Part shown: in pieces, positions 6,135-45,377 of the stretch | Numbering within the stretch: position 1 is the first letter of the stretch | Layout: each line of letters opens with the position of its first letter | Source: a phage | Reading direction: 5' to 3' (one strand) | Sequence record: PV357172.2 | DNA length: 64,000 nt | Notes under the pieces: model-generated | Database searches by the model: none | What the model was told of the DNA's origin: nothing | What the model saw: the letters and a program-made list of their open reading frames with translations, nothing else | Program-made: the position numbers and the translations under genes

Positions 6135-6168
6135 GCAAAAAGGGGAAGGAGCATAGCCCCCTCCCCTT
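6135..6168 (-). terminator. rho-independent terminator (minus strand)
   Basis: GC-rich hairpin GGGGAGGGGG...CCTTCCCC followed by TTTTTGCATTT on minus strand, just downstream of gene ending at 6186. Confidence 0.55.
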
Positions 6169-6185: not shown

Positions 6186-6953
6186 TTATTCAGCAGCCGC
6201 AGCTTTTGCATCCAGTTTAGCACGCTTAGCGGCACCATCATAGTCCTTAGCAACCAGACCACGACGAGACAGCATAGATTTAACACCGCGCTCAGATTTA
6301 CCAGTTTTCTCAGCGATCTCAGCAACAGTCATGTTAACCAGATCCAGACCTTCTAACAGATCTTCACGAGTTTTAGCACTCGAGGTTTCCTGTACCGGCA
6401 TAGCGGCGATACGACCTTCACGAAGCAGACTCAGAGCTTTACCACGGATCTGCTTGATATTACGACCGAAGTGAGCAGCGATAGCTTCAATAGTAGCACC
6501 AGCAACAACCTGATTAACAAAATCAGTTTCTTCATCCGGAGTGAAGGAACGAACAGCAGCAGCTTTTTCAGTTGGTTTAACAGAAGCGGTCATTTCCAGA
6601 CTCAGGATCTTACCCTGTACCTGCTTAGCACCGAACTGACCACCAGCTACAGCAGCAGCGATTTCAGCATAGGTATACTGACCAGCATGAGCGTTCAGGA
6701 AATCAACCAGTTCAGCTTCCTGCTCAGGAGTCCACGGAGATTTCTGCACTTCGTTAGCTTTCTGTACTTCAAAACCTTCTTTACGCAGTTTAGAGCCAAC
6801 AGAGCGGGCAGTAACATCTTTGCCAGTTTCAGCAGCCAGTTCAGCAGCAATAGCAGCTACTTGTTCTTGAGAGATTACAGCAACACCCAGAGCAGTGGCT
6901 TTTGCTTTCAGAGACTCGGTTACACCTTCTACGTTCCAGTTCAGTTTAGACAT
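6186..6953 (-). CDS. DNA-binding protein with three HTH-like repeats
   Basis: Three internal repeats (TYAEIAAAVAGG, TIEAIAAHFGRN, TVAEIAEKTGKS); GC-rich, strongly E. coli-like codon bias suggesting high expression. Confidence 0.5.
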   Translation of the reverse strand: MSKLNWNVEGVTESLKAKATALGVAVISQEQVAAIAAELAAETGKDVTARSVGSKLRKEGFEVQKANEVQKSPWTPEQEAELVDFLNAHAGQYTYAEIAAAVAGGQFGAKQVQGKILSLEMTASVKPTEKAAAVRSFTPDEETDFVNQVVAGATIEAIAAHFGRNIKQIRGKALSLLREGRIAAMPVQETSSAKTREDLLEGLDLVNMTVAEIAEKTGKSERGVKSMLSRRGLVAKDYDGAAKRAKLDAKAAAAE

Positions 6954-7728
6954 TATTATTTTTCTCCAATAGTTCTTTAATCGACAGGATTTCTATCCCA
7001 TTCGTTTCGGCTTTCTTATAAGATGAGGAAGAACGTTTTGATTCATCCTCACAGATCAGGTATTTGACGTCTTTGGTAACGGATTTCTTAACCGTATATC
7101 CTAGACCTTCTAAATAGTTTGTTGCATCCGTTCTATTTGCAAAATCTTGCAAAGATCCGGTAATACATACCGTTATTCCGTTTGGTTGGGCTACTAGACC
7201 ATCAGTGATGATGACCTCAGCTTTAGCACCTTTAATACCAGTTGTGAATTTCCACGGTAATTCGATAACATCCTTGCCTTGTGGGGAATTTAGCCAGGCT
7301 TTATAATTTTCTCCAGCCTTGCCGTCAGCCTTCACATCATGGAAGCTAGTGCAATTTTGGGATAATTTCTTTGCTGCAACCTCTCCGATTAGAGGGATTC
7401 CTAAAGAACCGAGAACTGAACCAAAGTCAATGTCTCCGCGAACTTTAGTATTTAATTCGCTAATTAACTTAGCGGCAACCTTGCTACCCACGGCTCTAAC
7501 CAAATCTTCTTCGGTTAGGTAAAATAGTTCTGAAATCTTCGTCAGCTCCAGCTTCTCAATAGTTTTTGGACCAAAGCCCTTTAACTTCATTTTTGAACAG
7601 AAGTTCTCAATTAACTTACTTGATTGCGCTGGACAGTTGGACTTATTCCGACAAAATAATTGTCCGTTGACAAGATCTAGCTTAGAACCACAAGAGGGAC
7701 ATTGTGTTGGAATTTCGATTTTCATCAA
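6946..7728 (-). CDS. NAD-dependent DNA ligase, C-terminal subunit (Zn finger, HhH, BRCT)
   Basis: N-terminal CPSCGSKL...CRNKSNC zinc finger, HhH-like GFGPKTIEKL, BRCT-like C-terminus. Confidence 0.75.
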   Translation of the reverse strand: MMKIEIPTQCPSCGSKLDLVNGQLFCRNKSNCPAQSSKLIENFCSKMKLKGFGPKTIEKLELTKISELFYLTEEDLVRAVGSKVAAKLISELNTKVRGDIDFGSVLGSLGIPLIGEVAAKKLSQNCTSFHDVKADGKAGENYKAWLNSPQGKDVIELPWKFTTGIKGAKAEVIITDGLVAQPNGITVCITGSLQDFANRTDATNYLEGLGYTVKKSVTKDVKYLICEDESKRSSSSYKKAETNGIEILSIKELLEKNNNV

Positions 7729-7929
7729 ATTTCTTCCTTATCAATTTATATAAATATTATAGCAAGTATTTAAGCATTTAGCAACTACAATTTTAACTAA
7801 CTTTGCTTACCCTCGCCATAACTTTCTATCCCTCAACTGAATGATAATAGTATATACCTAAGCGGCGAAAATGTCAATAACCACTTTATAATTCCGATAT
7901 GGTAGATGGGTAGCAAAGGGTTACATATA

Positions 7930-9955: not shown

Positions 9956-10366
9956 TTACTTAGTGATAGCTCGGATTGCTTCTGCCAGATGAGCAGCCGC
10001 TTTACCGGTCAGTTTGTCGATAATTGCATCATCCAGAAAATCTGGTGCTAAGCCAGCGTCAGAGAATGCTGCGCGAAGGTCGGCATGGGCTTGAGCTTTG
10101 GAGGTACGAGAACCACCGGAAGCTTTTTCTCCAGTAGATGCGCTAGATTTAGAAGTAGAACCAGCAGCTTTCTTGATATACAAACCTGCTTTAGTCAGCT
10201 TCATACGAAAACCGTTCGGAGTTACACCATTTTCCTGGGCAATTTCGCTAACAATTTCCATGCTAACACCCGGACGTTCATCCTCTGGGAATTGCTCCAT
10301 ACGAGCAACATATTCGGAAGACATTTTTTCAAACAGTTCATCAGTCCACTGAGTTGGAGTAGTCAT
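9956..10366 (-). CDS. hypothetical protein (136 aa)
   Basis: ORF track; Ser/Ala/Lys-rich low-complexity middle. Confidence 0.45.
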   Translation of the reverse strand: MTTPTQWTDELFEKMSSEYVARMEQFPEDERPGVSMEIVSEIAQENGVTPNGFRMKLTKAGLYIKKAAGSTSKSSASTGEKASGGSRTSKAQAHADLRAAFSDAGLAPDFLDDAIIDKLTGKAAAHLAEAIRAITK

Positions 10367-30061: not shown

Positions 30062-30577
30062 ATGGCTAAGCAGAAAAACGCAAAAACTCAAGCAGCTCCG
30101 GCAGTTAAAACTTTCCCGAAGACTGAGGCTAATCGCAAAGCTCGGCTGGAACGTCACCTGCGTAAGCATCCTACCGATGCTCAGGCTGCGCAAGCACTGA
30201 ATAATCCGGCTCCGATTCGTAAGAAGCCTAAAGCTAAAAATGCCACCCGTAAATCCTACAAAATGGTTATGTATGTAGAAAATTACGGCCACAAATCTGT
30301 CCCAGTTTCCCTGAGCTTCAACGCTGGAGCTGAATTGTTCTCTCGTAATGGTATGTCTATGAAAGACTATGAGAAGGCAGTTAACCAGAAGCGTAAACCA
30401 ACAGCAGATGTATTGCGTGATACTCGTGGACAGTTTGGTTCTGTTAAGCCAAATATCTTTGGCGTAGAGTATAGTAAAGATAATGTTCGTGCTCTGTGTT
30501 ACGGTGTAGGCATTAAGTTCACGGGTGATTCTGCTCGTAAATCTGCTAAACCAGCTCGTAAACGTAAAGCGAAGTAA
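30062..30577 (+). CDS. basic Lys/Arg/Ala-rich protein, possibly nucleic-acid binding
   Basis: 171-aa ORF; strong codon bias; basic termini. Confidence 0.5.
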   Translation: MAKQKNAKTQAAPAVKTFPKTEANRKARLERHLRKHPTDAQAAQALNNPAPIRKKPKAKNATRKSYKMVMYVENYGHKSVPVSLSFNAGAELFSRNGMSMKDYEKAVNQKRKPTADVLRDTRGQFGSVKPNIFGVEYSKDNVRALCYGVGIKFTGDSARKSAKPARKRKAK

Positions 30578-31936: not shown

Positions 31937-32119
31937 ATGCCAGTATCTAAAAATGTTCGTAAAAATGGTAAGAAAGCTACTCGTAATCTGGGTATCCGTC
32001 GTATGGCTGAACGTCAATCAGGTATCCAGAAAATCTTTGATCTGTTAAATCGTGCTAATCCTAAAATTGATAACAGTAAAGATACTGTTCTGCGTACCTT
32101 ACTGGCAATGGGTCTGTAA
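31937..32119 (+). CDS. small basic protein (60 aa)
   Basis: ORF track; promoter module and AAAAGGAAAACAAAT leader upstream. Confidence 0.45.
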   Translation: MPVSKNVRKNGKKATRNLGIRRMAERQSGIQKIFDLLNRANPKIDNSKDTVLRTLLAMGL

Positions 32120-32171: not shown

Positions 32172-32810
32172 ATGACTACTCGTATTTCTAAAACTCGCGA
32201 TCTGGCAACTATCAAATCTCTGGAAGCTAAAATCCGTAAAGCTACTGAACAACAGCTTCTGATCGCTGTTGGTGAAGGTAAGGATAAAAATAAGGTTGTA
32301 GTTGGCGCTGCAATCGAAGTAGACGATCTGTCTGCTCGTATTAAGGCAGATTTCCAATCTCTCCTAGATATGATGTCCCAGCGTGATCGTATCAAAGCTG
32401 CTCTGATTAAGAGCAATGCGGAAACAGTAGTTGAGATTGGTTCTCGTAAAATGACTGTTGCAGAAGCAATTGAAGCTAAGCGTTCTATGGAGCTTAAAGC
32501 TCAGTTGCTGGCTAATATGCGTAAGCAGTTCCATGCCGCTACGGTTAAGTTTAATACGCAGAAAGCACAGTTTGATGCTAAATATGAGCGTTTGCAGGAT
32601 AGCATGGCTACCCGCGATAAGAAAACTTCCGAAGATGAAGTTAAAATGCAGCTCAACCTGCTGGAACTCAAGAATACTCCATTCTTGATTGATCCGCTGG
32701 AGCTGGAGAAGCTGATCAAGCAGCACGACGAAGAATATCAGGACTTTGCAACTAATGTTGACTTTGTTCTGTCTGAGTCTAATGCCTCTACTTTCATTGA
32801 AGTAGAGTAA
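32172..32810 (+). CDS. coiled-coil protein of unknown function (212 aa)
   Basis: ORF track; strong codon bias; heptad-like sequence. Confidence 0.5.
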   Translation: MTTRISKTRDLATIKSLEAKIRKATEQQLLIAVGEGKDKNKVVVGAAIEVDDLSARIKADFQSLLDMMSQRDRIKAALIKSNAETVVEIGSRKMTVAEAIEAKRSMELKAQLLANMRKQFHAATVKFNTQKAQFDAKYERLQDSMATRDKKTSEDEVKMQLNLLELKNTPFLIDPLELEKLIKQHDEEYQDFATNVDFVLSESNASTFIEVE

Positions 32811-36052: not shown

Positions 36053-36127
36053 CGGGGTGTAGTCTAAGGGAGAGGCAGGAGTCTTCTAAATTCCTTTATG
36101 CAGGTTCGAATCCTGTCACCTCGGCCA
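36053..36127 (+). tRNA. tRNA-Arg (anticodon TCT)
   Basis: Hand-folded cloverleaf: acceptor CGGGGTG/CACCTCG, anticodon loop CTTCTAA, T-arm GCAGG-TTCGAAT-CCTGT, encoded CCA. Confidence 0.65.
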
Positions 36128-36161
36128 ATTTTATTAACTGTAGCTAAAACAAAGGAAATAT

Positions 36162-37109
36162 ATGTTTAATACTAAAAATATGAAAGAACTGACTTCTGAG
36201 CAGAAAGTAATTCGTACTATTAAACGTTGGGGTATTGGTGCTGTAGTTGGTTTAGCAGGTTTAATCCTAGCTTTTAATTCATATACTGTTGTTCAAGACG
36301 GTACTGTTAAAACCCAGACTTTCCTGGGTAAAGTTGACCCTAGCCCAGTATTACCCGGCTTTCATATTGTAAATCCTTTTGCTTCTTTCGATACTTTTAG
36401 TACTAAAGATATTGCCCTAAAATTAGATAAACTTCAGGTTCCTAGCCAGGATAAGTTTAAATCCACTGTTGACCTGACTGTTATGTTGCAGTTTGATGGT
36501 TCTAAGGCACCAATTAACCGTATTAACGCAGGTACTCAGGATCAGGCGTTAGACAAGTATGTAACTGAAAAATTACTGTCTACTATTCGTGAGTTTGGTA
36601 AGTCTGTACCTAAAGCACAAGATTTGTTTGATGCTAAAATTCAGGCTCAATTGCAAACTGCAATTCAACAGGAAGTTGAAGAGTATGCACGCCCATATGG
36701 TTACACAGTTAAGCAGGTATTCCTTCAGGATATTACTTTGCCACCGGTAATCATGGAACAGGTACAGAATACCAAAGTTCGTGAAGAGCAAGTTAATGCT
36801 GCGAAAGCTGAACTGGCCCGCGTTGAACAAGAAGCGCAGCAAAAGGTTAAACAAGCAGAAGCAGACCGTGAAGCTCGCAACAACCAAGCTATTGCTAATG
36901 AACGTGACGCAGATGCTAAACTGTACGCAGCTAAGAAAGAAGCTGAAGCTAACGCCGCATTGCAACGTACCATTACTCCTGAGATGATTCGCTGGAAGCA
37001 ACTGGAAGTTGAAATGCTTCGTGCTGAAAAATACCAAGGTGGTGTACCGCAAACAGTAGTGGGAACTGGTTACGATGGCCAGATGATCATGGATATGCGT
37101 AATAAGTAA
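36162..37109 (+). CDS. SPFH/band-7 (prohibitin/HflK-like) membrane protein
   Basis: N-terminal TM segment, SPFH-like core, Ala/Glu/Gln-rich coiled-coil tail. Confidence 0.55.
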   Translation: MFNTKNMKELTSEQKVIRTIKRWGIGAVVGLAGLILAFNSYTVVQDGTVKTQTFLGKVDPSPVLPGFHIVNPFASFDTFSTKDIALKLDKLQVPSQDKFKSTVDLTVMLQFDGSKAPINRINAGTQDQALDKYVTEKLLSTIREFGKSVPKAQDLFDAKIQAQLQTAIQQEVEEYARPYGYTVKQVFLQDITLPPVIMEQVQNTKVREEQVNAAKAELARVEQEAQQKVKQAEADREARNNQAIANERDADAKLYAAKKEAEANAALQRTITPEMIRWKQLEVEMLRAEKYQGGVPQTVVGTGYDGQMIMDMRNK

Positions 37110-37145
37110 TATCCGCATGTAATCTCTGAAGTAAGCCCTGTGTTC

Positions 37146-37175
37146 CCTGGAGAGCGCAGGGCTTTTCTGTATTTA
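37146..37175 (+). terminator. rho-independent terminator
   Basis: Hairpin CCCTG-GAGAGCG-CAGGG followed by CTTTTCTGTATTT. Confidence 0.55.
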
Positions 37176-37299
37176 AGGCAAAAGAAAAAGCCCATAAGTT
37201 ATTCAACTAAGGTCTTTAGTATTTAATTCTTTAGAATCATATAATATTATTGCAGCAACAACGTGCTAACCTTAAGTGCCCTGCAATTTTCCTCTAAAA

Positions 37300-37350
37300 A
37301 GTTAAAAAATTCGATTGCTTGAATGCTAAATTCTCTGTATAATATATTTA
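37300..37350 (+). promoter_or_regulatory. sigma70-like strong early promoter
   Basis: TTGCTT at 37315-37320, 17-nt spacer, TGTATAAT ending at 37343. Confidence 0.6.
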
Positions 37351-37373
37351 TAAATTTGAGAGAGGAATCAAAT

Positions 37374-38429
37374 ATGATTAAGACTGGTCTAGTAATTGGT
37401 AAGTTCGCACCATTAACGCGTGGTCATATTAACCTAATAAACACAGCAGCAACTATGTGTGAACGAGTTATTGTTGTAGTTAGTCATGATAATCGTTGGC
37501 TGGATAAGCAGAACACACGTGATCAGGAAGTATTACAGTTAAAGAATCGACTTCGTTGGTTAGAACAAACTTACGCGGATATTGAGCACATTTCGGTAGA
37601 GTACATTATTGAAGATGATATTCCTGAATATCCGAATGGTTGGCCGGAATATGCTAGAATCCTTAATGAAAATTACGGACATTTGCCTGAGATCACCGTT
37701 TTCTCTAGCGAACTAGACTATGATGCAGAATATAAGAAATATCTGCCGAAGTTTGGTCATTATATTGTAGATTCTGATCGGACTCGTGTTCCAATCTCAG
37801 CTACAATGATTCGTAATGATCTTATGAAGTATTGGGAGTTTCTTCCTAGCTTAGTTCGTAAAGATTACGTGCGTAAGGTTGTAATCATTGGGACTGAAAG
37901 CTCGGGAAAGACTACTTTAACAAAATACCTTGCGAAGCTATACAACACTTCGTGGGTAGAAGAATATGGCCGAACGTATTGTGAAGTTGATCTAGTTGGT
38001 AACGAAAATCTACTTACCAGTGAAGATTACAGTAAAATTGCGTTCAGACACAAAGAGCTAGAGTTTGAAGCAGAACGTACTGCAAATAAGATCATGTTTG
38101 TGGATACAAATGCTTTTATTACTGAGTTCTACCACAGACTTTATGAACATAGTAAGAACCCTGTGGTTACAGCAATTGCAAAAGTAGAACATTACGATTT
38201 AGTAATTGTTCTAGCGCCTACTGTCAAGTGGGTAGATGATGATTTACGTATTAACTCCGATCGTTCAATTACTTCTGAACTGTTCGAGCAGATGAAGAAA
38301 GAATTTCCAAATCAGTTCCCTGAAGGGCGTACTGTTTACATCGACTCTCCGGACTACAAAGTTCGTATGGACGAAGCAGTAAACGCAGTAGACTGGCTGA
38401 TTCATCACTTTAACGTTGGAGAGTTTTAA
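37374..38429 (+). CDS. NadR-like bifunctional NMN adenylyltransferase / ribosylnicotinamide kinase
   Basis: N-terminal nucleotidyltransferase motif GKFAPLTRGHINLI; C-terminal P-loop IIGTESSGKTTL. Confidence 0.65.
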   Translation: MIKTGLVIGKFAPLTRGHINLINTAATMCERVIVVVSHDNRWLDKQNTRDQEVLQLKNRLRWLEQTYADIEHISVEYIIEDDIPEYPNGWPEYARILNENYGHLPEITVFSSELDYDAEYKKYLPKFGHYIVDSDRTRVPISATMIRNDLMKYWEFLPSLVRKDYVRKVVIIGTESSGKTTLTKYLAKLYNTSWVEEYGRTYCEVDLVGNENLLTSEDYSKIAFRHKELEFEAERTANKIMFVDTNAFITEFYHRLYEHSKNPVVTAIAKVEHYDLVIVLAPTVKWVDDDLRINSDRSITSELFEQMKKEFPNQFPEGRTVYIDSPDYKVRMDEAVNAVDWLIHHFNVGEF

Positions 38430-38430
38430 T

Positions 38431-39108
38431 ATGACTAACTATCTCGTAAATGACTTTAAAAACTGGAAACCTCTGGAATATCTGTGGCTGCTCATAGCGG
38501 TTGTCTTCATTAGTTTAGCAAACTATAATGGTACAGCTCTAGATTGGGCTACTGCAATAACCAATGTGGTTTGTGTTATTCTGGTTGCAAAAGGACGTGT
38601 TTCCAACTATATTTGGGGCTTAGTGGGTGTTCTTACATATGGTATTACAGCTTTAAACGCAGATCTTTATGGTAACGCTGCACTAAACCTGCTATACTAC
38701 GTTCCTATGCAGTTTTATGGAATGTACTTATGGCATAAAAATAAACCAAGTAATCTGCCAGACGTTCCAACTAAGGTTCTGACTAAAGCTCAGGCTTTAT
38801 TAACTCTTGGGATTCTAGCAGTAGCTACTCTAGGCTATGGCAGCTTCCTCGCTACCACAGCAGATCCGTTCCCAATGCTCGATGCATTTACTGCGGTTGG
38901 TAGTGTAATTGCTATGTGGCTTATGGTCAAGCAGTATGCTGAACAATGGCTAATCTGGATTGCCATTAATATTGGTACTGTATACATTTGGTTTGTAACT
39001 GCTCAGTCTACAGGTGCTTCTTATGCAATCCTAGCAATGTGGCTGGTATTCTTTGGTAACTCTGTACTTGGAGCCTATAAAGGGTACTTTGTACGCGTTA
39101 ACAAATAA
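38431..39108 (+). CDS. PnuC-like nicotinamide riboside transporter
   Basis: Multi-TM protein immediately downstream of NadR-like gene; ATG at 38431 after GGAGAG. Confidence 0.55.
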   Translation: MTNYLVNDFKNWKPLEYLWLLIAVVFISLANYNGTALDWATAITNVVCVILVAKGRVSNYIWGLVGVLTYGITALNADLYGNAALNLLYYVPMQFYGMYLWHKNKPSNLPDVPTKVLTKAQALLTLGILAVATLGYGSFLATTADPFPMLDAFTAVGSVIAMWLMVKQYAEQWLIWIAINIGTVYIWFVTAQSTGASYAILAMWLVFFGNSVLGAYKGYFVRVNK

Positions 39109-39116
39109 AATAGTTA

Positions 39117-39150
39117 TAGCCCTCAAAGCGAGGGCTATTATCCAGAAAAT
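39117..39150 (+). terminator. rho-independent terminator (weak U-tract)
   Basis: Hairpin AGCCCTC-AAAGC-GAGGGCT followed by ATTATCC. Confidence 0.4.
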
Positions 39151-39151
39151 T

Positions 39152-39192
39152 TCACTTGCTAAATGCCGAGATTTTCTGTATAATATATTTAT
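39152..39192 (+). promoter_or_regulatory. sigma70-like promoter driving tRNA transcription
   Basis: TTGCTA at 39156-39161, 17-nt spacer, TGTATAAT ending at 39184; tRNA-Ser begins about 15 nt downstream. Confidence 0.6.
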
Positions 39193-39198
39193 AAATTC

Positions 39199-39290
39199 GG
39201 AAGATTAACCCTAATTGGTAAGGGAGCATCTTGCTAAGTTGCCAGTAGCTGTGGAAACACGGTGTATCGGTTCAAGTCCGATATCTTCCT
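39199..39290 (+). tRNA. tRNA-Ser (anticodon GCT), long variable arm
   Basis: Perfect acceptor GGAAGAT/ATCTTCC, anticodon loop TTGCTAA, variable-arm hairpin, T-arm ATCGG-TTCAAGT-CCGAT, encoded CCA. Confidence 0.7.
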
Positions 39291-39298
39291 CCAAATTT

Positions 39299-39373
39299 GG
39301 TTCTCAAGCTCATTTGGTATGAGCCGTCGCCTCATAAGCGAAAGGTAGGTAGGTTCGAATCCTCCGGGAGCCA
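39299..39373 (+). tRNA. tRNA with CAT anticodon (Met or Ile2)
   Basis: Acceptor GGTTCTC/GGGAGCC with G-U pairs, D-stem GCTC/GAGC, anticodon loop CTCATAA, T-loop TTCGAAT, encoded CCA. Confidence 0.65.
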
Positions 39374-39393
39374 CCAGATAACTAGGAGACTTT

Positions 39394-39582
39394 ATGTCAC
39401 GCTTTCACGAAATTAAGCAAGAACTGGAAGAACTCGCCTGTCCTGAATGCTTTGGGACAGGTGAATGGAATGATGCTGAACCCGGGGATACGCGGTTTAA
39501 CACTTACGTTTGCACTCACTGTGAAGGTACTGGTGTAAACCCTCTTTACACTATTTCTCTTTTTGTAGGGGTTGCTAAATAA
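39394..39582 (+). CDS. small zinc-ribbon protein (62 aa)
   Basis: CPECFGTGEW...CTHCEGTG DnaJ-like Cys motifs. Confidence 0.45.
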   Translation: MSRFHEIKQELEELACPECFGTGEWNDAEPGDTRFNTYVCTHCEGTGVNPLYTISLFVGVAK

Positions 39583-39588
39583 TGCACT

Positions 39589-39936
39589 TTGAAGATGATG
39601 AAAAAAGAAGCGTTCTACACTGTCCCAGCAATTAATCTGCTCGGTACTGTACTATTTCAGATTAAGTTCTACCTGCGAGACGACTACACTGAAGTGGTAA
39701 ACGCTATTGTACCTGAGTTCTTCGTAAATAATTTCCAAAAGGACTTTAAGTTCTTTATTGATGATGTTTACGATGGTGTGGTTGATCCGGCAGTAGCTCC
39801 AGCTATATACAATGTATTTAATTCTCTGCCAGATCTAGATTTTGATCTAGGACTTATTGAGTCTGGTGAGATTATCTGGGCACTTAATGTTCCAGTGACT
39901 GGATTCCCTGGTTGGCTGCAAGGTTACGAACTCTAA
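39589..39936 (+). CDS. hypothetical protein (115 aa)
   Basis: ORF track. Confidence 0.45.
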   Translation: MKMMKKEAFYTVPAINLLGTVLFQIKFYLRDDYTEVVNAIVPEFFVNNFQKDFKFFIDDVYDGVVDPAVAPAIYNVFNSLPDLDFDLGLIESGEIIWALNVPVTGFPGWLQGYEL

Positions 39937-39944
39937 CAAAATTT

Positions 39945-40027
39945 GGATCTGTGGTGGAATTGGCAATACACACCATGCTTAAAACGTGGCGCTTAAATGA
40001 TTGAGGGTTCGAGCCCCTCCAGATCCA
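39945..40027 (+). tRNA. tRNA-Leu (anticodon TAA), long variable arm
   Basis: Perfect acceptor GGATCTG/CAGATCC, anticodon arm CCATG-CTTAAAA-CGTGG, T-arm GAGGG-TTCGAGC-CCCTC, encoded CCA. Confidence 0.7.
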
Positions 40028-40182
40028 CCAAATTAAGGAAGTAAAAATGAAATCTATTAAGAAAGCACTGCGTAAATTTATGTATTGTCGTTTTCATAGC
40101 ATCAAGGCTTCAACTAATGGTACTACTTACGATCGCTATGATCCTAAGTTTGGCTTACATTCTAAATAACTGGAGAAAACAA

Positions 40183-40389
40183 ATGGCTAATCCTGAAATT
40201 ACGGCACAACGCTTTATGCTGAAAGGAATTATTGCTGAAGCAGGCATGACAGAAGAAGTTGCAGATTTTCAAAAGCAATTCCTCAATATTCTCACTCAAG
40301 CCAAAGAGCTAGGAGAGAAAGAACATGGCGCGGCTATTATGGCAATCACATTGGTTGGGCTTGATCTGGCTGAAGAATCAGGAGTTTAA
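40183..40389 (+). CDS. hypothetical protein (about 68 aa)
   Basis: ATG at 40183 after GGAGAAAACAA; track ORF starts upstream. Confidence 0.45.
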   Translation: MANPEITAQRFMLKGIIAEAGMTEEVADFQKQFLNILTQAKELGEKEHGAAIMAITLVGLDLAEESGV

Positions 40390-40478
40390 CTCCTCCAAGC
40401 AGAAATTTTAAAAATGTACTTGCTTTTTACTTAAGATTTCTGCTATAATAGTTATATAAGTTGATGAGAGGAATCAGA

Positions 40479-40754
40479 ATGTTAAAACGTTTTGCAGCAA
40501 CTGGTATTGAAAGCTCAGTATGTAAATCCTGGGGTGGTTGGGAAGGTGAGATCGAGTGGCTTTATTTCTACAATGTAGAACTTCTTCCAGAGATCAAAGC
40601 TCAATGTATTGAGGCTGGTATGGCTCCTGATGCTACGGCTGATGTTGAAATCAGCATGAATAAGCTAGAGGGTCGAGTAGTCACTGTTACTGATGAAGGT
40701 GAAGAGGTATTCGAACTTCCATTCACTTTGAAAGTCACTCCTTCATTTGATTAA
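40479..40754 (+). CDS. hypothetical protein (about 91 aa)
   Basis: ATG at 40479 after promoter module and GAGAGG. Confidence 0.5.
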   Translation: MLKRFAATGIESSVCKSWGGWEGEIEWLYFYNVELLPEIKAQCIEAGMAPDATADVEISMNKLEGRVVTVTDEGEEVFELPFTLKVTPSFD

Positions 40755-40882
40755 CTGATACAGCACTGAGCAAGTTCTTTAAAATTTGACTTGCTCAGTA
40801 CCTTAAAACTTGGTATAATAGTTATCTAATTTGGAAACATATTTAAAAGTATTCAAATACTAGTTTAAACACTTTTAAATGT

Positions 40883-40966
40883 ACATCGTTGGCAGAATGG
40901 CTATTGTAGCGGTCTGTAAATCCGTGCCCTTCGGGATTGGTGGTTCGAATCTTACACGGCCCGCCA
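40883..40966 (+). tRNA. tRNA-Tyr-like element (GTA anticodon loop), possibly degenerate
   Basis: D-arm and anticodon arm (loop CTGTAAA) fold, variable-arm hairpin GCCC-TTC-GGG, TTCGAAT T-loop, CCA present; T-stem and acceptor pair poorly in my reading. Confidence 0.3.
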
Positions 40967-41068
40967 AATTCTGTGTAGAGTTAAGTAAACCGGTAGCCAA
41001 CCAGCTATCATTGCTGACATCGAATTCAGCCACAGATACCATTTTCATTAATAACTGAGGAAATAGAT

Positions 41069-41254
41069 ATGACAACTCGTGCAATTGCTCGACTAGAAGC
41101 TGATCGTGATAATCTGATTAATAATATTAAGGTTCGTGGTAATATTATTAAGGCTCTGAAAGCTGAACTTCTTGAAGAACTTCAAGGTCAAGTAGAGCGT
41201 CGTGAAGCTCTAAAAGAGGTTGAGGAAGCTATCGAAAAACTCAAAGCTGAGTAA
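41069..41254 (+). CDS. small coiled-coil protein (61 aa)
   Basis: ORF track; GAGGAAATAGAT RBS. Confidence 0.45.
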   Translation: MTTRAIARLEADRDNLINNIKVRGNIIKALKAELLEELQGQVERREALKEVEEAIEKLKAE

Positions 41255-41257
41255 ATT

Positions 41258-41839
41258 ATGCACGGAATATCCTTACCAATTCCAGGGTTTGAGGAGTACT
41301 TAGTAAGTTTGGATGGGTTAGTATTTAGTATCAAATCAAACAAAATACTAACCCCAATAACCAGTAATTACGGATACTTATCTATACGTCTCCATAAAAA
41401 TGGTCAACAGAGAAATACCGGTGTACATAGGATTTTAGCATGTGCATTTAAGAAATTACCAAGTCTAGACTCTGAACTAGAAGTTGACCATATTAACACA
41501 GACATTACTTATTGGGGTCTTAATAACTTACAAGTGCTCACAAAAGAGCAGCATCTAGAAAAGACTTTAAAAGATAAAGGATTTAGTAAACTAAACCATG
41601 ATAATTGTTGTAAGGATTGTGGTAAAGCTATTTCTTTAAAAGCTGAAAAATGTCAGGAGTGCTCTTCACATAAACCAAAAGATATCTCTATAACTAAAGA
41701 AATAATCGAGGTTACAGTAAGAGAGCTAGGCTGGTCAGGTGCAGGGAGAAAGTTAAGTTATTCAGATAATGGGTTGCGTAAAAGATACACTTCTTTAGGA
41801 GGCAATCCTAAAGAACTTAAAAAGTTAAAGGTACTATAG
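41258..41839 (+). CDS. HNH endonuclease with zinc finger and C-terminal HTH
   Basis: HNH region ELEVDHINTDITYWGLNNLQVLTKEQH; CKDCG...CQEC zinc finger; paralog of 43929-44513. Confidence 0.65.
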   Translation: MHGISLPIPGFEEYLVSLDGLVFSIKSNKILTPITSNYGYLSIRLHKNGQQRNTGVHRILACAFKKLPSLDSELEVDHINTDITYWGLNNLQVLTKEQHLEKTLKDKGFSKLNHDNCCKDCGKAISLKAEKCQECSSHKPKDISITKEIIEVTVRELGWSGAGRKLSYSDNGLRKRYTSLGGNPKELKKLKVL

Positions 41840-41901
41840 TCTAACGGTTAGGATACTCCCCTGTCACGGGAGAGGTAGGGTTTCGATTACCCTTAGTACC
41901 G
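41830..41901 (+). tRNA. tRNA-Asp (anticodon GTC)
   Basis: Perfect acceptor GGTACTA/TAGTACC, anticodon arm CTCCC-CTGTCAC-GGGAG, T-arm AGGGT-TTCGATT-ACCCT, CCA; 5' end overlaps HNH stop codon. Confidence 0.7.
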
Positions 41902-41910
41902 CCAAATTAT

Positions 41911-41984
41911 ACATCCATAGCTCAATTGGTTAGAGCTACCGCCTCTTAAGCGGTAGGTTCTAGGTTCAAGTCCTAGTGGGTGTA
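41911..41984 (+). tRNA. tRNA-Lys (anticodon CTT)
   Basis: Acceptor ACATCCA/TGGGTGT, D-stem GCTC/GAGC, anticodon arm ACCGC-CTCTTAA-GCGGT, T-arm CTAGG-TTCAAGT-CCTAG, CCA. Confidence 0.7.
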
Positions 41985-41987
41985 CCA

Positions 41988-42200
41988 AACATCAGAGCAG
42001 CGTGATGTACTGCAAAGACCCAAAGTCCGGGGTGGACTTCTTGATTCAAAGGAGCAGGCACTAATTATCATTCTAGCGTGGTGGAGAGGGGACACCAGCT
42101 TGCCGAGGGTAGAAGCTCGTTCGATTCGAGTGAAAGAATGGTTCTCGTAAATCCGCACAAGTGATAGCAGGTTCAAGTCCTGCCTAGATTGACTTATTAT
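41988..42200 (+). ncRNA. structured noncoding segment with two orphan T-arm-like hairpins (pseudo-tRNAs or small RNA)
   Basis: GCTCG-TTCGATT-CGAGT and GCAGG-TTCAAGT-CCTGC T-arm-like elements with no pairing acceptor stems found; no credible ORF. Confidence 0.3.
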
Positions 42201-42271
42201 GCGTTCGTAGTTAAAAGGTATAATTTTTGGTTGCCAACCAGAAGTTGAGGGTTCGATTCCCTCCGACCGCA
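42201..42271 (+). tRNA. tRNA-Gly (anticodon GCC)
   Basis: Acceptor GCGTTCG/CGACCGC (one mismatch), anticodon arm TTTGG-TTGCCAA-CCAGA, T-arm GAGGG-TTCGATT-CCCTC, CCA. Confidence 0.65.
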
Positions 42272-42587
42272 CCAAATTTAGGTTTCTGCTTCCTAGAGAA
42301 CGGACTCCTAGATAAACAAGGCGATGAGTTTCCGGCCGGTTCTAGTCGCTGAAAATCCTCCCGACCAGGTAGGTGTAAGTAAATGAAAGTTTACTTATTG
42401 AGTAGGTTCCGATAGACCGGCGGGTCTATTCTGGCATTTAAGAGAGGTCTCGCAAACTTCTTTGTCAGCCGTGGGGTTGGTAGCCTCCAGGTGGCCTACA
42501 CAATAAGTAAATTTATTAAAAATTCATTTGCTATTCTGCTTAATTCTCTGTATAATATATTTTATAAAGTGAGTTAACAAAAATTAA

Positions 42588-42660
42588 CAGTGCGTAGCGC
42601 AGTTGGTAGCGTGGGAGCCTTGGGTGCTTCGGGTCGCAGGTTCGAGTCCTGCCGCACTGA
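42588..42660 (+). tRNA. tRNA-Pro (anticodon TGG)
   Basis: Perfect acceptor CAGTGCG/CGCACTG, anticodon arm GGAGC-CTTGGGT-GCTTC, T-arm GCAGG-TTCGAGT-CCTGC, CCA; directly after promoter module. Confidence 0.7.
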
Positions 42661-42669
42661 CCAAACAAT

Positions 42670-42744
42670 TGCGGGTTAGATCTCTGGTAGAGATCGCTAG
42701 TCTCATAAGCTAGAAAGAGGTAGGTTCGATTCCTGCACCCGCTT
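42670..42744 (+). tRNA. tRNA with CAT anticodon (Met/fMet or Ile2)
   Basis: Anticodon loop CTCATAA, T-arm GTAGG-TTCGATT-CCTGC, CCA; position 1-72 appears unpaired (U-U) in my fold. Confidence 0.6.
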
Positions 42745-42767
42745 CCATTTTAATAGAGGATTTCGAA

Positions 42768-42931
42768 ATGAAAGTATTTCGATTAGTAGTAAGTGACAAA
42801 CGGTTAGGTAAGAATACATCAAAATCCTTACTTGCTCATTATGGTAAAAATTGGGATGAAGTAATGGCAGAGTTTAATACTAATCACCCTTACTTGAAAG
42901 TTCACTCTATTAAGGAAGTTTATGCTTATTA
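42768..42931 (+). CDS. small protein (about 54 aa)
   Basis: Below track threshold; ATG at 42768 after AGAGGA; overlaps start of next gene. Confidence 0.35.
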
Positions 42932-43395
42932 ACAGGGTGCTTCAAGCTCTAGATCTTCCAGAGCTCTTTACTATTACCGACCCCTTAATACATCGGTATA
43001 TGGAAAAGTATAATGAAATCTCTGGTAAAAAAGGGAAACTAAAATCCTCAGAATTTAAGTTCTGTTATAGAATGGCAGCATTAAACCTCTTAAAGTACAA
43101 GAGGGAGCATAAAATCCCTATAACAGAAGGATTTGTCTATGTAATAGGTAGTCCAGCATGGCCTGGACTATATAAGATAGGTATGACAGTAGATGTGAAT
43201 GAAAGACTGTCTAGTTATCAAACATATTCGCCTTATCGTGATTACAAGTTATACCATTTCAGATTCTCCTCGGACAAGAGAAGAACTGAAAAAGCATTAC
43301 ATAACCTTCTGAAGGACTACAAAGTATCAGGAGAATGGTTTGAAGTACCTCTGTTAGACGCCTTCAAACTATTAGTAGAAAATTTGGATTGCTAA
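42922..43395 (+). CDS. T5orf172/GIY-YIG-like domain protein
   Basis: Motif GFVYVIGSPAWPGLYKIGMT...R...E; AAGGAAG RBS. Confidence 0.5.
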   Translation: MLINRVLQALDLPELFTITDPLIHRYMEKYNEISGKKGKLKSSEFKFCYRMAALNLLKYKREHKIPITEGFVYVIGSPAWPGLYKIGMTVDVNERLSSYQTYSPYRDYKLYHFRFSSDKRRTEKALHNLLKDYKVSGEWFEVPLLDAFKLLVENLDC

Positions 43396-43460
43396 CTCAA
43401 CTGGATAAGAGTACCGGACCTTTAATCCGTCAGTTCTGGGTTCGAATCCCAGGCAATCCA
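43386..43460 (+). tRNA. tRNA-Lys (anticodon TTT)
   Basis: Perfect acceptor GGATTGC/GCAATCC, anticodon loop CCTTTAA, T-arm CTGGG-TTCGAAT-CCCAG, CCA; 5' end overlaps last codons of upstream CDS. Confidence 0.65.
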
Positions 43461-43748
43461 CCAATTTCAAGAAAAACTCAGTTGCTTGATGCTTAATTTC
43501 TTGTTATAATATTTATATAAATTGATGAGGAGAAATCCTCATCATAGTTCACTAAGGTATTAGCTCGACCTAGGACTGGCTGCCAAAAAGCACGATCCCT
43601 ACGATTTGGGAGAAGTTCTAGATTAGTCCACTAGATTCAGCGGCAACTGAATAGTGTATCGGTTTTGCGAGATGACGCGGTTCCTTCCGCTCGAAGCGAA
43701 GGTGCTGTAGTTACGCCGAGCTAATAGCCTTAGTAAACTAAGGAATTT

Positions 43749-43819
43749 GGGGATATAGTTTAATGGTAGAACATCTGCTTTGCACGCAGAAGACGAGGGT
43801 TCAACTCCCTCTTTCTCCA
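43749..43819 (+). tRNA. tRNA-Ala (anticodon TGC)
   Basis: Acceptor GGGGATA/TTTCTCC (one mismatch), anticodon arm TCTGC-TTTGCAC-GCAGA, T-arm GAGGG-TTCAACT-CCCTC, CCA. Confidence 0.65.
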
Positions 43820-43827
43820 CCAAATTT

Positions 43828-43909
43828 GGGGCTATGCTGGAACTGGTAGACAATACGGCCTTAGATTCCGTAGCTTAAATGCGTGGGAGTTCGAGTCTCC
43901 CTAGCCCCA
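43828..43909 (+). tRNA. tRNA-Leu (anticodon TAG), long variable arm
   Basis: Perfect acceptor GGGGCTA/TAGCCCC, anticodon loop CTTAGAT, T-arm GGGAG-TTCGAGT-CTCCC, CCA. Confidence 0.65.
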
Positions 43910-43928
43910 CCAACTTATAGGGTAATGT

Positions 43929-44513
43929 ATGCAGTTTGTACCAATAAAAGATGCACCAGGGTATTTAGTAAATGAAACAGGGGATGTGTTATCTACATTT
44001 ACTAATAAAATCTTATCAAGATATATAGTTGATGGGTACCCTGCTGTAAAATTACAGATAAATGGTAAGCAAACTTCGGTACTTATACACCGAATTATTT
44101 CTCATGTATTTGGGGACTTATATAATCTATTTGACCCTGAATTAGAAGTAGATCACAAGGATAGAGATAGGCTGAATCTATCTAAAGATAATCTTCAAGT
44201 TTTATCAAAAATAGAACATCAGAAGAAAACTAATAAAGATAATGGATGGTCTGATAGTAGAGTACCTTGCCCCTTATGTGGAAATCTAATGCTTCAGAGA
44301 TCAGTAACATGTACAAATTGTAAGCCAAAACCTACAGGAAAGTTAATAAAACCAGAATTGTCCTTAGAAGACATAACTGAAAAGGTTTTATTAATGGGGT
44401 GGGTTAAGGCAGCTAAAGATCTAGAAGTATCAGAGTCCACTTTACGTAGACGATATACTAAACTAACCGGATTAAGCCCGAAAGTATTAACAGAACAACG
44501 GAAAAGCAAATAG
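43929..44513 (+). CDS. HNH endonuclease with zinc finger and C-terminal HTH
   Basis: HNH region ELEVDHKDRDRLNLSKDNLQVL; CPLCG...CTNC zinc finger; paralog of 41258-41839. Confidence 0.65.
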   Translation: MQFVPIKDAPGYLVNETGDVLSTFTNKILSRYIVDGYPAVKLQINGKQTSVLIHRIISHVFGDLYNLFDPELEVDHKDRDRLNLSKDNLQVLSKIEHQKKTNKDNGWSDSRVPCPLCGNLMLQRSVTCTNCKPKPTGKLIKPELSLEDITEKVLLMGWVKAAKDLEVSESTLRRRYTKLTGLSPKVLTEQRKSK

Positions 44514-44590
44514 ACTGGTGACTAAACCCGATTGGAAATCGGTTGAGTGGTAGCAATACCGCCTTATGGGTTCAACTCCCATCTTTTCCG
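44500..44590 (+). tRNA. tRNA-Ser (anticodon GGA), long variable arm
   Basis: Perfect acceptor GGAAAAG/CTTTTCC, anticodon loop TTGGAAA, T-arm ATGGG-TTCAACT-CCCAT, CCA; 5' end lies inside last codons of HNH gene. Confidence 0.6.
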
Positions 44591-44605
44591 CCAAACAATT
44601 TATAT

Positions 44606-44697
44606 GGTAGGTCAATCCAATGGCTGGCGCTGGACTCCGACTTGAAATCGGTTGATCGTAGTGATACGGTGTAAGGGTTCGATCCCCTTACCTACCT
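44606..44697 (+). tRNA. tRNA-Ser (anticodon TGA), long variable arm
   Basis: Perfect acceptor GGTAGGT/ACCTACC, anticodon loop CTTGAAA, T-arm AAGGG-TTCGATC-CCCTT, CCA. Confidence 0.65.
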
Positions 44698-44955
44698 CCA
44701 AATCTTGAAGTATGCCGGAATCGGTAGACGGGGCTGCCTAAAAGGTTTATAGGGAACATCCACTCCCTGCAACATACCTCATAAAGCGGCTGAGATAAAT
44801 GGTCTATCTCGTGAAGGTTCAAGTCCTTCTGCTTCTTGATACATCTATGGCTCAAAGTGTAACGGTGCTATTTGATGCTCTTGGTAAGACTTCCCCGACA
44901 TGCGTTCGGGAGTAAGCTGCTAAGACTAGAGTAGAAGAGTTTCTGAGAGCCGCCA

Positions 44956-45070
44956 CAATTGAAAATTCGTACTCGTCTTGAGCTGCGTGCAATAGGAGAT
45001 AACTTGATTAGTATTCTAGAACATGCTAATTGAGGATGGTTTCGCTAACCCTGCGAGTTTTCAATTGTGG
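44956..45070. repeat. 14-bp perfect inverted repeat GCCACAATTGAAAA / TTTTCAATTGTGGC separated by about 88 nt
   Basis: Read directly; distal arm overlaps the 5' acceptor of tRNA-His. Confidence 0.5.
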
Positions 45071-45140: not shown

Positions 45141-45168
45141 CCAAATTAACTTAAATAGGAAATAAAAT

Positions 45169-45369: not shown

Positions 45370-45377
45370 AAAATTAT

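What the first reader, a model, noticed from the sequence alone, without database searches (positions are those of the whole stretch)
6186..6953. Genes with host-like high-expression codon usage and elevated GC
The HTH-repeat DNA-binding gene (6186-6953), the basic protein (30062-30577), the coiled-coil protein (32172-32810) and the SPFH gene use CTG/CGT/GGT/GCT-rich codons, unlike the AT-rich bulk. This marks them as probably the most abundant early proteins or as recent acquisitions from the host.
Basis: seen in the sequence. Interest (0 to 1): 0.35.

Follow-up and report, generated by a model that had tools for sequence, protein, structure and literature searches.

The report
Codon-optimised abundant early phage proteins
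In this T5-like phage, the known DNA-binding protein D5 and a few other early genes are written in the host's fastest-translated codons because they are made in very large amounts; this is real but ordinary, and the genes were not taken from the host.

Summary
The window is the early region of a T5-like phage (Tequintavirus). The gene at 6186-6953 (- strand) is D5, the classical T5 double-stranded-DNA-binding protein.

The codon observation is confirmed. D5 has an E. coli codon adaptation index (CAI) of 0.71. That is rank 1 of 102 ORFs (mean 0.26), z about 10 against synonymous resampling, and within the range of E. coli rpsL, fusA and tufA.

The "elevated GC" is not a codon effect. D5's GC3 (0.32) equals the phage mean; the extra GC sits at codon positions 1 and 2 because the protein is rich in alanine.

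"Abundant early protein" is supported:
- Published proteomics finds D5 very abundant.
- In sister phage Bf23, D5's CAI (0.74) exceeds that of the major capsid protein (0.65).
- CAI tracks virion protein intensity (rho 0.85).
- D5 is the most biased or nearly the most biased gene in the Klebsiella, Proteus and Vibrio relatives examined.

"Recent host acquisition" is rejected. None of the genes matches any of 5,426 E. coli genomes, and all belong to widespread phage families.

This is a known gene showing a textbook phenomenon, so interest is low.

The parts
6186..6953 (-). D5 gene: a 255-aa double-stranded-DNA-binding protein ('transcription factor D5') built of four HTH modules. It is the most codon-biased gene in the window.
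   Evidence: Annotated as D5 in close relatives. PHROG 323 'D5-like', E 1.5e-71. CAI 0.707 and Nc 30.1. AF2 model with pLDDT 92.6 shows four three-helix modules plus a C-terminal helix. Internal repeats R2 and R3 align at z 8.3. Pfam Sigma70_r4_2 at residues 204-230, 28.7 bits against a 25.7 cut-off.
6946..7728 (-). ligB (NAD-dependent DNA ligase subunit B), the upstream cistron of the same transcription unit. Its stop overlaps the D5 start by 8 nt. Its CAI is ordinary.
   Evidence: ORF and sequence. Bf23 annotation. CAI 0.235.
7756..7877 (-). Two sigma-70-like promoter matches upstream of ligB-D5: TTGACA-17-TATACT at 7877-7849, and TTGCTA-17-TGnTATAAT at 7784-7756.
   Evidence: Consensus scan. 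Bf23 has a predicted early promoter at the same place. These are consensus matches only; function was not shown.
6140..6168 (-). Intrinsic-terminator-like hairpin (13 pairs, 8 of them G-C, followed by a T run) 17 nt after the D5 stop. It closes the ligB-D5 unit.
   Evidence: Scan and sequence.
9956..10366 (-). D3 gene (136 aa, PHROG 1725 'DNA binding protein').
   Evidence: CAI 0.554, z about 5. PHROG match. Bf23 annotation 'D3 protein'. ORFs at the corresponding position are also top-ranked in the Proteus and Vibrio phages; the Vibrio one is annotated 'DNA binding protein', but orthology was not tested by alignment.
30062..30577 (+). Basic 171-aa protein of unknown function (DUF7022 / PHROG 4516) with high CAI. 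A promoter-like site (TTGCTA-17-TATAAT) lies at 29995-30023.
   Evidence: CAI 0.481, z 4.5-4.8. Pfam DUF7022, E 1.9e-76. Promoter scan. Found in 530 phage records.
30642..30857 (+). 71-aa ORF (PHROG 2380) with high CAI, in the same cluster.
   Evidence: CAI 0.442, Nc 34.2. PHROG match.
31937..32119 (+). 60-aa ORF (PHROG 5252) with high CAI, immediately upstream of the coiled-coil gene.
   Evidence: CAI 0.474, Nc 28.5. PHROG match.
32172..32810 (+). 212-aa coiled-coil protein (PHROG 1491, labelled 'tail fiber protein' by annotation transfer) with high CAI.
   Evidence: CAI 0.507, z about 6, second on PC1. PHROG match. Found in 744 phage records, including Bacillus and Pseudomonas phages.
36162..37109 (+). 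SPFH/Band-7 membrane protein (315 aa) with moderately high CAI. It is followed by a strong terminator-like hairpin at 37133-37164.
   Evidence: Pfam Band_7, E 2e-17. CAI 0.428, z about 5. Terminator scan. Found in 740 phage records, including T4-like phages.
36053..47020 (+). Cluster of 19 phage tRNA genes. Several are cognate to the A-ending codons (AGA, TTA, CTA, ACA, CCA, GCA, CAA) that the bulk of the phage genes use and the high-CAI genes avoid.
   Evidence: ARAGORN. These codons make up 2.4% of D5 against a mean of 13.9%. Spearman correlation with CAI is -0.81 over the 63 genes of at least 100 aa.

Best explanation
These are phage genes whose products are needed in bulk, stoichiometric amounts. 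Selection for translational efficiency has driven their synonymous codons towards those read by the host's most abundant tRNAs (CGT, CTG, GGT, GCT, ACT, TCT, ATC, CAG).

The clearest case is D5. It is a 255-aa early protein made of four helix-turn-helix modules. [quoted passage not shown]

D5 is transcribed with ligB from early promoters, starts 8 nt before the ligB stop, and is followed by a strong terminator. Its neighbour on the same mRNA has ordinary codon usage. So the bias is specific to the gene and acts at translation.

What is shown: the bias itself, its independence from amino-acid sequence and from GC3, its conservation in distant relatives, and D5's abundance (from the literature). 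What is inferred: that codon choice itself raises D5 yield, and that D3, DUF7022, the coiled-coil protein, SPFH and the two small ORFs are likewise abundant.
For: - D5 identity.
- CAI 0.707, rank 1 of 102, comparable to E. coli rpsL 0.66, fusA 0.74 and tufA 0.82. z about 10 against resampling that keeps the protein sequence.
- Nc 30.1 against 53.6 expected from GC3. PC1 of RSCU correlates with log CAI at r 0.91 and picks out the same genes.
- ligB, the co-transcribed neighbour, has CAI 0.235.
- In Bf23, D5 scores 0.736, above the major capsid protein (0.646), the ssDNA-binding protein D11 (0.540) and the tail tube protein (0.366). CAI against virion MS intensity gives rho 0.85, p 3e-5, n 16 (intensities from PMC10644984).
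[quoted passage not shown] It is the only non-virion protein in the >100 spectral-count class of phiR2-01.
- The bias is conserved in orthologues that are 77%, 55% and 48% identical: CAI rank 1 of 46 in the Klebsiella phage, CAI rank 1 of 39 in the Proteus phage, and Nc rank 1 of 35 in the Vibrio phage. The preferred Leu codon differs between them: CTG, TTA and CTA.
- The general rule that abundant phage proteins carry host-preferred codons is established (Lucks 2008, PMC2266997).
- D5's function is stated in the title of McCorquodale 1979, as cited.
Against: - Abundance is documented only for D5. For the other genes it is inferred from CAI alone.
- Shine-Dalgarno strength does not correlate with CAI (rho -0.12, p 0.24), so there is no independent initiation signal of high expression.
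- Asp (GAT 8/9) and Tyr (TAT 3/3) in D5 go against the E. coli optimum.
- Synonymous divergence against Bf23 is not clearly lower in D5 than in some neighbours: pS is 0.074 for D5 and 0.063 for ligB. Mosaic divergence between the genomes blurs this test.
- Host codon preferences for Proteus and Vibrio were not measured here.
Confidence: 0.85

Rival explanations
1. The genes were recently acquired from the bacterial host and still carry host codon usage and GC content.
For: Codon preferences resemble those of highly expressed E. coli genes. Whole-gene GC of D5 is raised (0.474 against 0.388).
Against: - blastn (word size 11) found no match for any of the five genes in 5,426 complete E. coli genomes.
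- GC3 is 0.319, equal to the phage mean and far from the 0.513 of the E. coli reference genes. The GC excess is at codon positions 1+2.
- All five belong to phage families.
- D5 is in 903 phage records with conserved ligB-D5-helicase synteny out to Vibrio and Aeromonas phages. Its 715 homologous protein clusters sit on contigs up to about 114 kb, and none carries a cellular protein name apart from contaminant-like fragments.
- The bias is present in orthologues with only 48-77% identity.
Confidence: 0.02
2. The apparent bias is a by-product of amino-acid composition, strand-specific mutation bias or Ala-codon repeats, not selection on synonymous codons.
For: D5 is 17.6% Ala and contains runs of GCT. 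GC1+2 is unusually high (0.555).
Against: - Resampling that keeps the amino-acid sequence exactly still gives z about 10.
- The bias is seen in Arg, Gly, Leu, Ile, Thr, Ser and Gln as well as Ala.
- Neighbouring genes on the same strand and the same transcript have CAI 0.24-0.27.
- The high-CAI genes lie on both strands.
Confidence: 0.03
3. The split reflects tRNA supply rather than protein amount. High-CAI genes are those that must be translated using host tRNAs only, for example before the phage's own tRNAs accumulate. The remaining genes rely on phage tRNAs.
For: There is a strong negative correlation between CAI and use of the A-ending codons cognate to the window's own tRNAs (rho -0.81). 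D5 uses them at 2.4% against a mean of 13.9%. Nineteen tRNA genes lie in the window.
Against: - The whole window is early region, and ligB on the same mRNA as D5 has ordinary codons.
- The late major capsid protein also has high CAI (0.646), so timing does not separate the classes.
- CAI tracks abundance among virion proteins.
- This is better seen as the complementary side of the same selection than as an alternative to it.
Confidence: 0.08
4. For SPFH and the coiled-coil gene only: the codon usage was imported with the gene from another phage lineage (phage-to-phage transfer).
For: SPFH homologues at 58-78% identity occur in T4-like myoviruses of about 170-178 kb. Coiled-coil homologues occur in Bacillus, Pseudomonas and Lactococcus phages.
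Against: Both genes are 90-99% conserved across hundreds of Tequintavirus records. Their GC3 values (0.30 and 0.39) are in the phage's range. Their codon preferences follow the same PC1 axis as D5.
Confidence: 0.07

Closest known systems
Bacteriophage T5 / BF23 protein D5 (T5.118; PHROG 323 'transcriptional regulator, D5-like')
   Same: It is the same gene. Identity is 99-100% over residues 1-240 to D5 of many Tequintavirus phages, in the same ligB-D5-D6 helicase context, and the nucleotide sequence of this region is 98% identical to Bf23. Published properties: a DNA-binding protein affecting replication and late gene expression (title cited); very abundant in lysates; an HTH protein that triggers retron-Kva2.
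   Different: Nothing substantive. The codon-usage ranking (above the major capsid protein) was not found in the papers searched.
Translational selection on highly expressed phage genes (Sharp & Li CAI; Lucks et al. 2008, PMC2266997)
   Same: Host-preferred codons are enriched in the most abundant phage proteins, independently of amino-acid sequence and GC3.
   Different: Lucks et al. framed the contrast as structural against non-structural genes. Here the top gene is a non-structural early protein, and other early non-virion genes (D3, D11, DUF7022, coiled-coil, SPFH) also score high.
Phage phi29 protein p6 (histone-like dsDNA-binding protein)
   Same: A functional analogy only. p6 is an early, very abundant double-stranded-DNA-binding protein that acts in both replication and the early-to-late transcription switch (PMC4974454).
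   Different: No sequence or fold relationship was tested or is expected. D5 is a 255-aa array of four HTH modules. Genome-wide coating by D5 has not been shown.
Sigma-70 region 4 / LuxR-type / Myb-like HTH domains
   Same: The fourth module of D5 passes the Pfam Sigma70_r4_2 gathering score. The other modules give sub-threshold HTH_23 and Myb hits. The weak Foldseek hits are to TraR, sigma factors and the Tc3 and Mos1 transposase HTH domains.
   Different: There are no sigma region 2 or 3 domains (region 3 is sub-threshold only). No whole-chain match to any solved structure (best E 0.095; phmmer best E 0.56). The four-module architecture has no solved counterpart.

Membership tests
T5 D5 protein family (PHROG 323) | Full-length sequence homology to T5/BF23 D5 | tested here: met
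   PHROG 323, E 1.5e-71 over residues 1-253. tblastn identity of 99-100% to many Tequintavirus records annotated D5. The nucleotide sequence of this region is 98% identical to Bf23 'transcription factor D5'.
T5 D5 protein family (PHROG 323) | Conserved position between ligase subunit B and the D6 replicative helicase | tested here: met
   Seen in the window and in Bf23, Klebsiella, Proteus, Vibrio and Aeromonas phages.
T5 D5 protein family (PHROG 323) | Binds double-stranded DNA and is required for replication and late gene expression | not testable with these tools
   Literature only (title of McCorquodale 1979 cited; the HTH-DNA model). HTH modules are predicted here.
Genes under translational selection (highly expressed class) | Codon usage significantly closer to the host's highly expressed reference set than other genes of the same genome, with amino-acid sequence controlled | tested here: met
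   CAI 0.707 against a mean of 0.264, z about 10. The other four genes give z 4.5-6.3.
Genes under translational selection (highly expressed class) | Bias not explained by base composition (GC3) | tested here: met
   GC3 is 0.319 against a mean of 0.324. Nc is 30.1 against 53.6 expected from GC3.
Genes under translational selection (highly expressed class) | Product measured as abundant | tested here: inconclusive
   Met for D5 from published SDS-PAGE and MS. No data were found for D3, DUF7022, the coiled-coil protein or SPFH. The CAI-abundance relation holds for Bf23 virion proteins (rho 0.85).
Genes under translational selection (highly expressed class) | Bias maintained in diverged orthologues | tested here: met
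   D5 orthologues rank 1 by CAI in the Klebsiella and Proteus phages and rank 1 by Nc in the Vibrio phage. Not tested for the other genes.
Recently host-acquired (horizontally transferred) gene | Detectable homologue in host chromosomes | tested here: not met
   No blastn match in 5,426 complete E. coli genomes at E <= 1e-3. Salmonella genomes were not searched.
Recently host-acquired (horizontally transferred) gene | Host-like third-position composition and patchy distribution among related phages | tested here: not met
   GC3 is phage-like. The genes are present in 530-903 phage records across genera.
Sigma-70 family | Regions 2 and 4 both present | tested here: not met
   Only a region-4-type HTH at residues 204-230 passes the threshold. 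There is no region 2 hit. D5 is not a sigma factor.

The most novel reading that the evidence does not exclude
D5 is more codon-optimised than the capsid protein, which suggests it is made in capsid-like copy numbers. On that reading it would act as a phage 'chromatin' protein that coats a large fraction of intracellular T5 DNA.

This coat, rather than any classical anti-restriction protein, could be what makes T5 and BF23 DNA refractory to restriction in vivo. A protective DNA-binding protein was proposed by Davison 2015, as quoted; the BF23 authors note there that avoidance of methylation cannot be tied directly to such a mechanism. The coat could also drive the early-to-late switch.

The other high-CAI early proteins (D3, basic DUF7022, coiled-coil, SPFH) would then be stoichiometric parts of the same non-virion infection scaffold.
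Probability: 0.12. Interest if true: 0.6.

Novelty: already known. Interest (0 to 1): 0.15.

Why it matters
The main value is in annotation and prioritisation.

CAI ranks protein abundance well in this phage lineage (rho 0.85 for virion proteins). The high-CAI early genes of unknown function are therefore predicted to be abundant and are sensible first targets for functional work. These are D3, DUF7022 (30062-30577), the PHROG 1491 coiled-coil protein (probably mislabelled 'tail fiber'), SPFH, and two ORFs of 60-71 aa.

The analysis also corrects the idea that these genes are host-derived. It shows that the GC bump at D5 comes from protein composition.

It does not open a new question. D5's identity and abundance, and the link between codon bias and expression in phages, are already published.

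Tried and rejected
- **Synonymous divergence against Bf23** (Nei-Gojobori pS per gene). I expected lower pS in D5. D5 gives 0.074 against a pooled 0.166, but ligB (0.063) and 9264-9572 (0.032) are equally low. pS ranges from 0.03 to 0.41 between genes, and CAI against pS gives rho -0.05. The divergence is mosaic (recombination), so the test is uninformative.
- **Shine-Dalgarno duplex energy against CAI**. No correlation (rho -0.12, p 0.24).
- **Sequence search of solved structures** for D5, D3, the coiled-coil protein and DUF7022. Nothing significant; the best is E 0.07-0.56.
- **Foldseek of the D5 model against PDB**. No hit with E < 0.09, only generic HTH proteins. The whole-chain search is hampered by the uncertain relative orientation of the four modules (pTM 0.51).
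- **Classical D5 papers.** I tried to read McCorquodale 1979 and Davison 2015. Neither is held.
- **phiR2-01 per-protein spectral counts.** I looked for the supplementary tables. They are not held.
- **A 30-gene E. coli ribosomal-protein reference.** This failed because the E. coli locus was not exported to the script machine. I used four pasted genes instead.
- **GcrA-like idea for the 'WTPE...' repeats.** No Pfam support, so dropped.

Full report
**What the window is.** Nucleotides 5800-7800 are 98-99% identical to many Tequintavirus (T5-like) phages. The features under the match are annotated ligB, D5 and D6. The curated Bf23 record shows the order D10 helicase, DNA polymerase, primase, D6 helicase, 'transcription factor D5', ligB, ligA, a PC4-like protein, D3, D2 and the origin-binding protein. 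This matches the window's - strand ORFs from 1 to about 15 kb. The window is therefore the early region. Genes lie on the - strand up to about 21.7 kb and on the + strand after that. Nineteen tRNA genes lie at 36-47 kb.

**Checking the observation.** I built a set of 102 non-overlapping ORFs of at least 50 aa on the coding strands.

- With Sharp & Li E. coli weights (recalled from memory), D5 (6186-6953, - strand) has CAI 0.707, the highest in the window. The mean is 0.264, sd 0.10, and the next best is 0.554.
- I checked the recalled table against weights derived from MG1655 rpsL, rpsG, fusA and tufA. The log weights correlate at r = 0.95. The two gene rankings agree (Spearman 0.99), and D5 scores 0.700.
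- On the same scale the E. coli genes score 0.53-0.82, so D5 reads like a ribosomal-protein or elongation-factor gene.
- Resampling synonymous codons from the phage's own pooled usage, with each protein sequence held fixed, gives a null mean of 0.316 and sd 0.025 for D5 (z about 10, maximum of 3000 simulations 0.425). The z values are 4.5-6.3 for 9956-10366, 30062-30577, 32172-32810 and 36162-37109.
- D5's effective number of codons (Nc) is 30.1, against 53.6 expected from its GC3.
- An unsupervised PCA of relative synonymous codon usage (RSCU) over the 63 genes of at least 100 aa has a first axis carrying 25% of the variance, which correlates with log CAI at r = 0.91. Its positive extreme is, in order, D5, 32172-32810, 30062-30577, D3, 48722-49087 and SPFH.
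- The PC1 loadings are CGT, CTG, TCT, ACT, GGT and CCG against AGA, TTA, ATA, ACA, AGG and GGA.

The SPFH gene is 36162-37109 (Pfam Band_7).

**The GC part of the claim.** D5's GC is 0.474 against a mean of 0.388. Its GC3 is 0.319, indistinguishable from the window mean (0.324) and far from the 0.513 of the E. coli reference genes. The excess is in positions 1+2 (0.555), because the protein is 17.6% Ala and rich in Gly, Val and Glu. The preferred codons are mostly T-ending (GCT 38/45, GGT 17/19, CGT 10/12, ACT 11/15, TCT 10/15), plus CTG 17/19, ATC 8/10 and CAG 10/12. Codon optimisation therefore occurs without any shift in GC3. 'Host-like GC' is not what is there.

**Is it host-derived?** No.

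- The five genes, concatenated, give no blastn hit in 5,426 complete E. coli genomes.
- All match phage protein families: PHROG 323 'D5-like', 1725, 4516, 1491 and 200.
- D5 homologues occur in 903 phage records. These include Klebsiella (77% identity), Proteus (55%), Vibrio (48-51%) and Aeromonas (54%) phages, always between ligase subunit B and the replicative helicase.
- The large protein database holds at least 715 homologous clusters of about 240-260 aa, on contigs up to about 114 kb. The listed hits carry no cellular protein names except contaminant-like fragments.
- DUF7022 is in 530 phage records. The coiled-coil protein is in 744, including Bacillus, Pseudomonas and Lactococcus phages. 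SPFH is in 740, including T4-like myoviruses at 58-78% identity.

**Is it high expression?** Four lines agree for D5.

1. Published proteomics. [quoted passage not shown] In Yersinia phage phiR2-01, D5 is the only non-T5-virion protein in the >100 spectral-count class (PMC8624392).
2. Calibration within the lineage. In Bf23, CAI is 0.736 for D5, 0.646 for the major capsid protein, 0.540 for the ssDNA-binding protein D11 and 0.366 for the tail tube protein. All other late and replication genes examined score 0.15-0.40. Across 16 virion proteins, CAI correlates with the published MS intensity at rho 0.85, p 3e-5.
3. Conservation of the bias.
   - The Klebsiella phage D5 has CAI 0.673 (rank 1 of 46, also Nc rank 1).
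   - The Proteus PM135 D5 is rank 1 of 39.
   - The Vibrio River4 D5 has the lowest Nc of 35 genes. The next most biased genes there are the gene annotated 'DNA binding protein' at the position corresponding to D3, and the ssDNA-binding protein.
   - The favoured Leu codon changes from CTG to TTA to CTA across these hosts, while GCT, CGT and GGT persist.
   - That pattern fits in-place tuning to each host. I did not measure those hosts' preferences.
4. The general rule is established for phages (Lucks et al. 2008, PMC2266997).

For D3, DUF7022, the coiled-coil protein, SPFH and the two small ORFs, abundance is a prediction from CAI only.

**Anatomy of the D5 unit.**

- Two promoter-like sites lie in the ligA-ligB gap: TTGACA-17-TATACT at 7877-7849, and TTGCTA-17-TATAAT with an upstream TG at 7784-7756. 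Bf23 carries a predicted early promoter there.
- The D5 ATG (6953-6951) lies 8 nt inside the end of ligB (stop at 6948-6946). A GGAG and an A-rich 10-nt spacer precede it.
- Seventeen nucleotides after the D5 stop there is a 13-bp, G+C-rich hairpin followed by a T run (6168-6140).
- ligB, on the same predicted transcript, has CAI 0.235. The bias is therefore gene-specific and acts at the level of translation.
- Shine-Dalgarno strength does not distinguish the high-CAI genes.

**What D5 is.**

- Pfam gives a Sigma70_r4_2 hit above threshold at residues 204-230, and sub-threshold HTH_23, Myb and winged-HTH hits over the other three quarters.
- Four repeat units can be aligned. R2 against R3 gives z 8.3, with 0 of 500 shuffles reaching it. 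R1-R4, R2-R4 and R3-R4 give z 2.8-3.8.
- An AlphaFold2 model built on 46 homologues has mean pLDDT 92.6 and pTM 0.51. It shows four three-helix modules (residues 11-58, 76-118, 139-178 and 210-231), a non-helical stretch at about 181-209, and a C-terminal helix at 240-254.
- No solved structure matches by sequence or by whole-chain fold (best E 0.095; only generic HTH proteins).
- A 2026 preprint reports that D5 triggers retron-Kva2 through an HTH-DNA interaction, and that escape mutations fall in D5, D3 and D2.
- D5's role in replication and late gene expression rests on the 1979 paper, whose title is quoted. I could not read that paper.
- The closest functional analogue I can name is phi29 p6, an abundant histone-like dsDNA-binding protein acting in replication and the early-to-late switch. 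This is an analogy, not homology.

**The complementary side: tRNAs.** The A-ending codons cognate to window-encoded tRNAs (AGA, TTA, CTA, ACA, CCA, GCA, CAA), plus ATA, make up 13.9% of codons on average but 2.4% in D5. Their share correlates with CAI at rho -0.81. A pure 'timing or tRNA supply' explanation is unlikely. The whole window is early region, ligB shares D5's transcript, and the late capsid gene is also high-CAI.

**Verdict.** The 'abundant protein' reading is right for D5 and a reasonable prediction for the rest. The 'host acquisition' and 'elevated GC from codons' readings are wrong. The gene, its abundance and the phenomenon are all already known, so interest is low. The useful residue is a short list of uncharacterised early genes predicted to be abundant.

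Noticed in passing
ORFs at the corresponding position rank 1-2 in the Vibrio and Proteus relatives; orthology was not tested by alignment. D3 is also a retron-Kva2 escape locus in the 2026 preprint.
   Followed up: partly
window 31937-32119, 30642-30857, 45169-45369 (+): Three small ORFs (60, 71 and 66 aa) have CAI 0.42-0.47 and low Nc (28.5, 34.2 and 40.5). The first two match PHROGs 5252 and 2380. The bias argues that they are real, well-expressed genes. Together with 30062-30577 and 32172-32810, the first two form a high-CAI cluster at 30-33 kb.
   Followed up: partly
window 6103-6168 (-): The longest-ORF start of the D6 helicase (ATG 6154; Bf23 also annotates 507 aa) lies inside the loop of the terminator-like hairpin that follows D5. 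A downstream in-frame GTG (6115) or ATG (6103, just after AAGGAG) is more likely. Orthologues are 466-501 aa.
   Followed up: partly
window 36162-37109 (+): The SPFH/Band-7 gene has homologues at 58-78% protein identity in T4-like myoviruses of about 170-178 kb (Klebsiella PSKm4DII, Cronobacter leB, Aeromonas asfd_1h). This suggests exchange between unrelated phage families. It sits directly after tRNA-Arg(tct) at 36053-36127 and before a strong terminator at 37133-37164.
   Followed up: partly
window 32172-32810 (+): The 'tail fiber protein' label (PHROG 1491, copied into many records including Bf23) looks doubtful. The gene lies in the early region, is a 212-aa coiled-coil protein, and has homologues in Bacillus, Pseudomonas and Lactococcus phages.
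   Followed up: no
window 7784-7756 (-), 29995-30023, 33194-33222, 35227-35255 (+): The same promoter-like pattern, TTGCTA-17 nt-TATAAT, recurs in front of several early units. This is consistent with a shared T5 early promoter type. These are consensus matches only, and the overall promoter-match count is not above the shuffle expectation.
   Followed up: no
window 40879-41058 and 41980-42150 (+): These two ORFs have the highest GC3 (0.47-0.48), Nc 61 and low CAI, and lie among the tRNA genes. 41980-42150 overlaps tRNA-Lys(ctt), which ends at 41987. They are probably not real genes.
   Followed up: no
public records matching window 5800-7800 and 30062-30577; proteins P0018, P0038: Short records labelled 'Listeria phage LM 4-11-1' (2-5 kb) and 'Enterococcus faecalis' partial proteins (contigs of 531-669 bp) are 97-100% identical to T5-like D5 or DUF7022 sequence. 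These are probably contamination or host mislabelling in public data.
   Followed up: no
window 36053-47020 compared with Bf23 28-35 kb (L002): The tRNA repertoire differs from Bf23. In this stretch Bf23 lists Val(tac), Asn(gtt), Cys(gca), Phe(gaa), Glu(ttc), Tyr(gta) and Ser(tga), none of which ARAGORN found in the window. The window has Arg(tct), Leu(taa), Lys(ctt), Ser(gct), Ser(gga) and Ile(gat).
   Followed up: no
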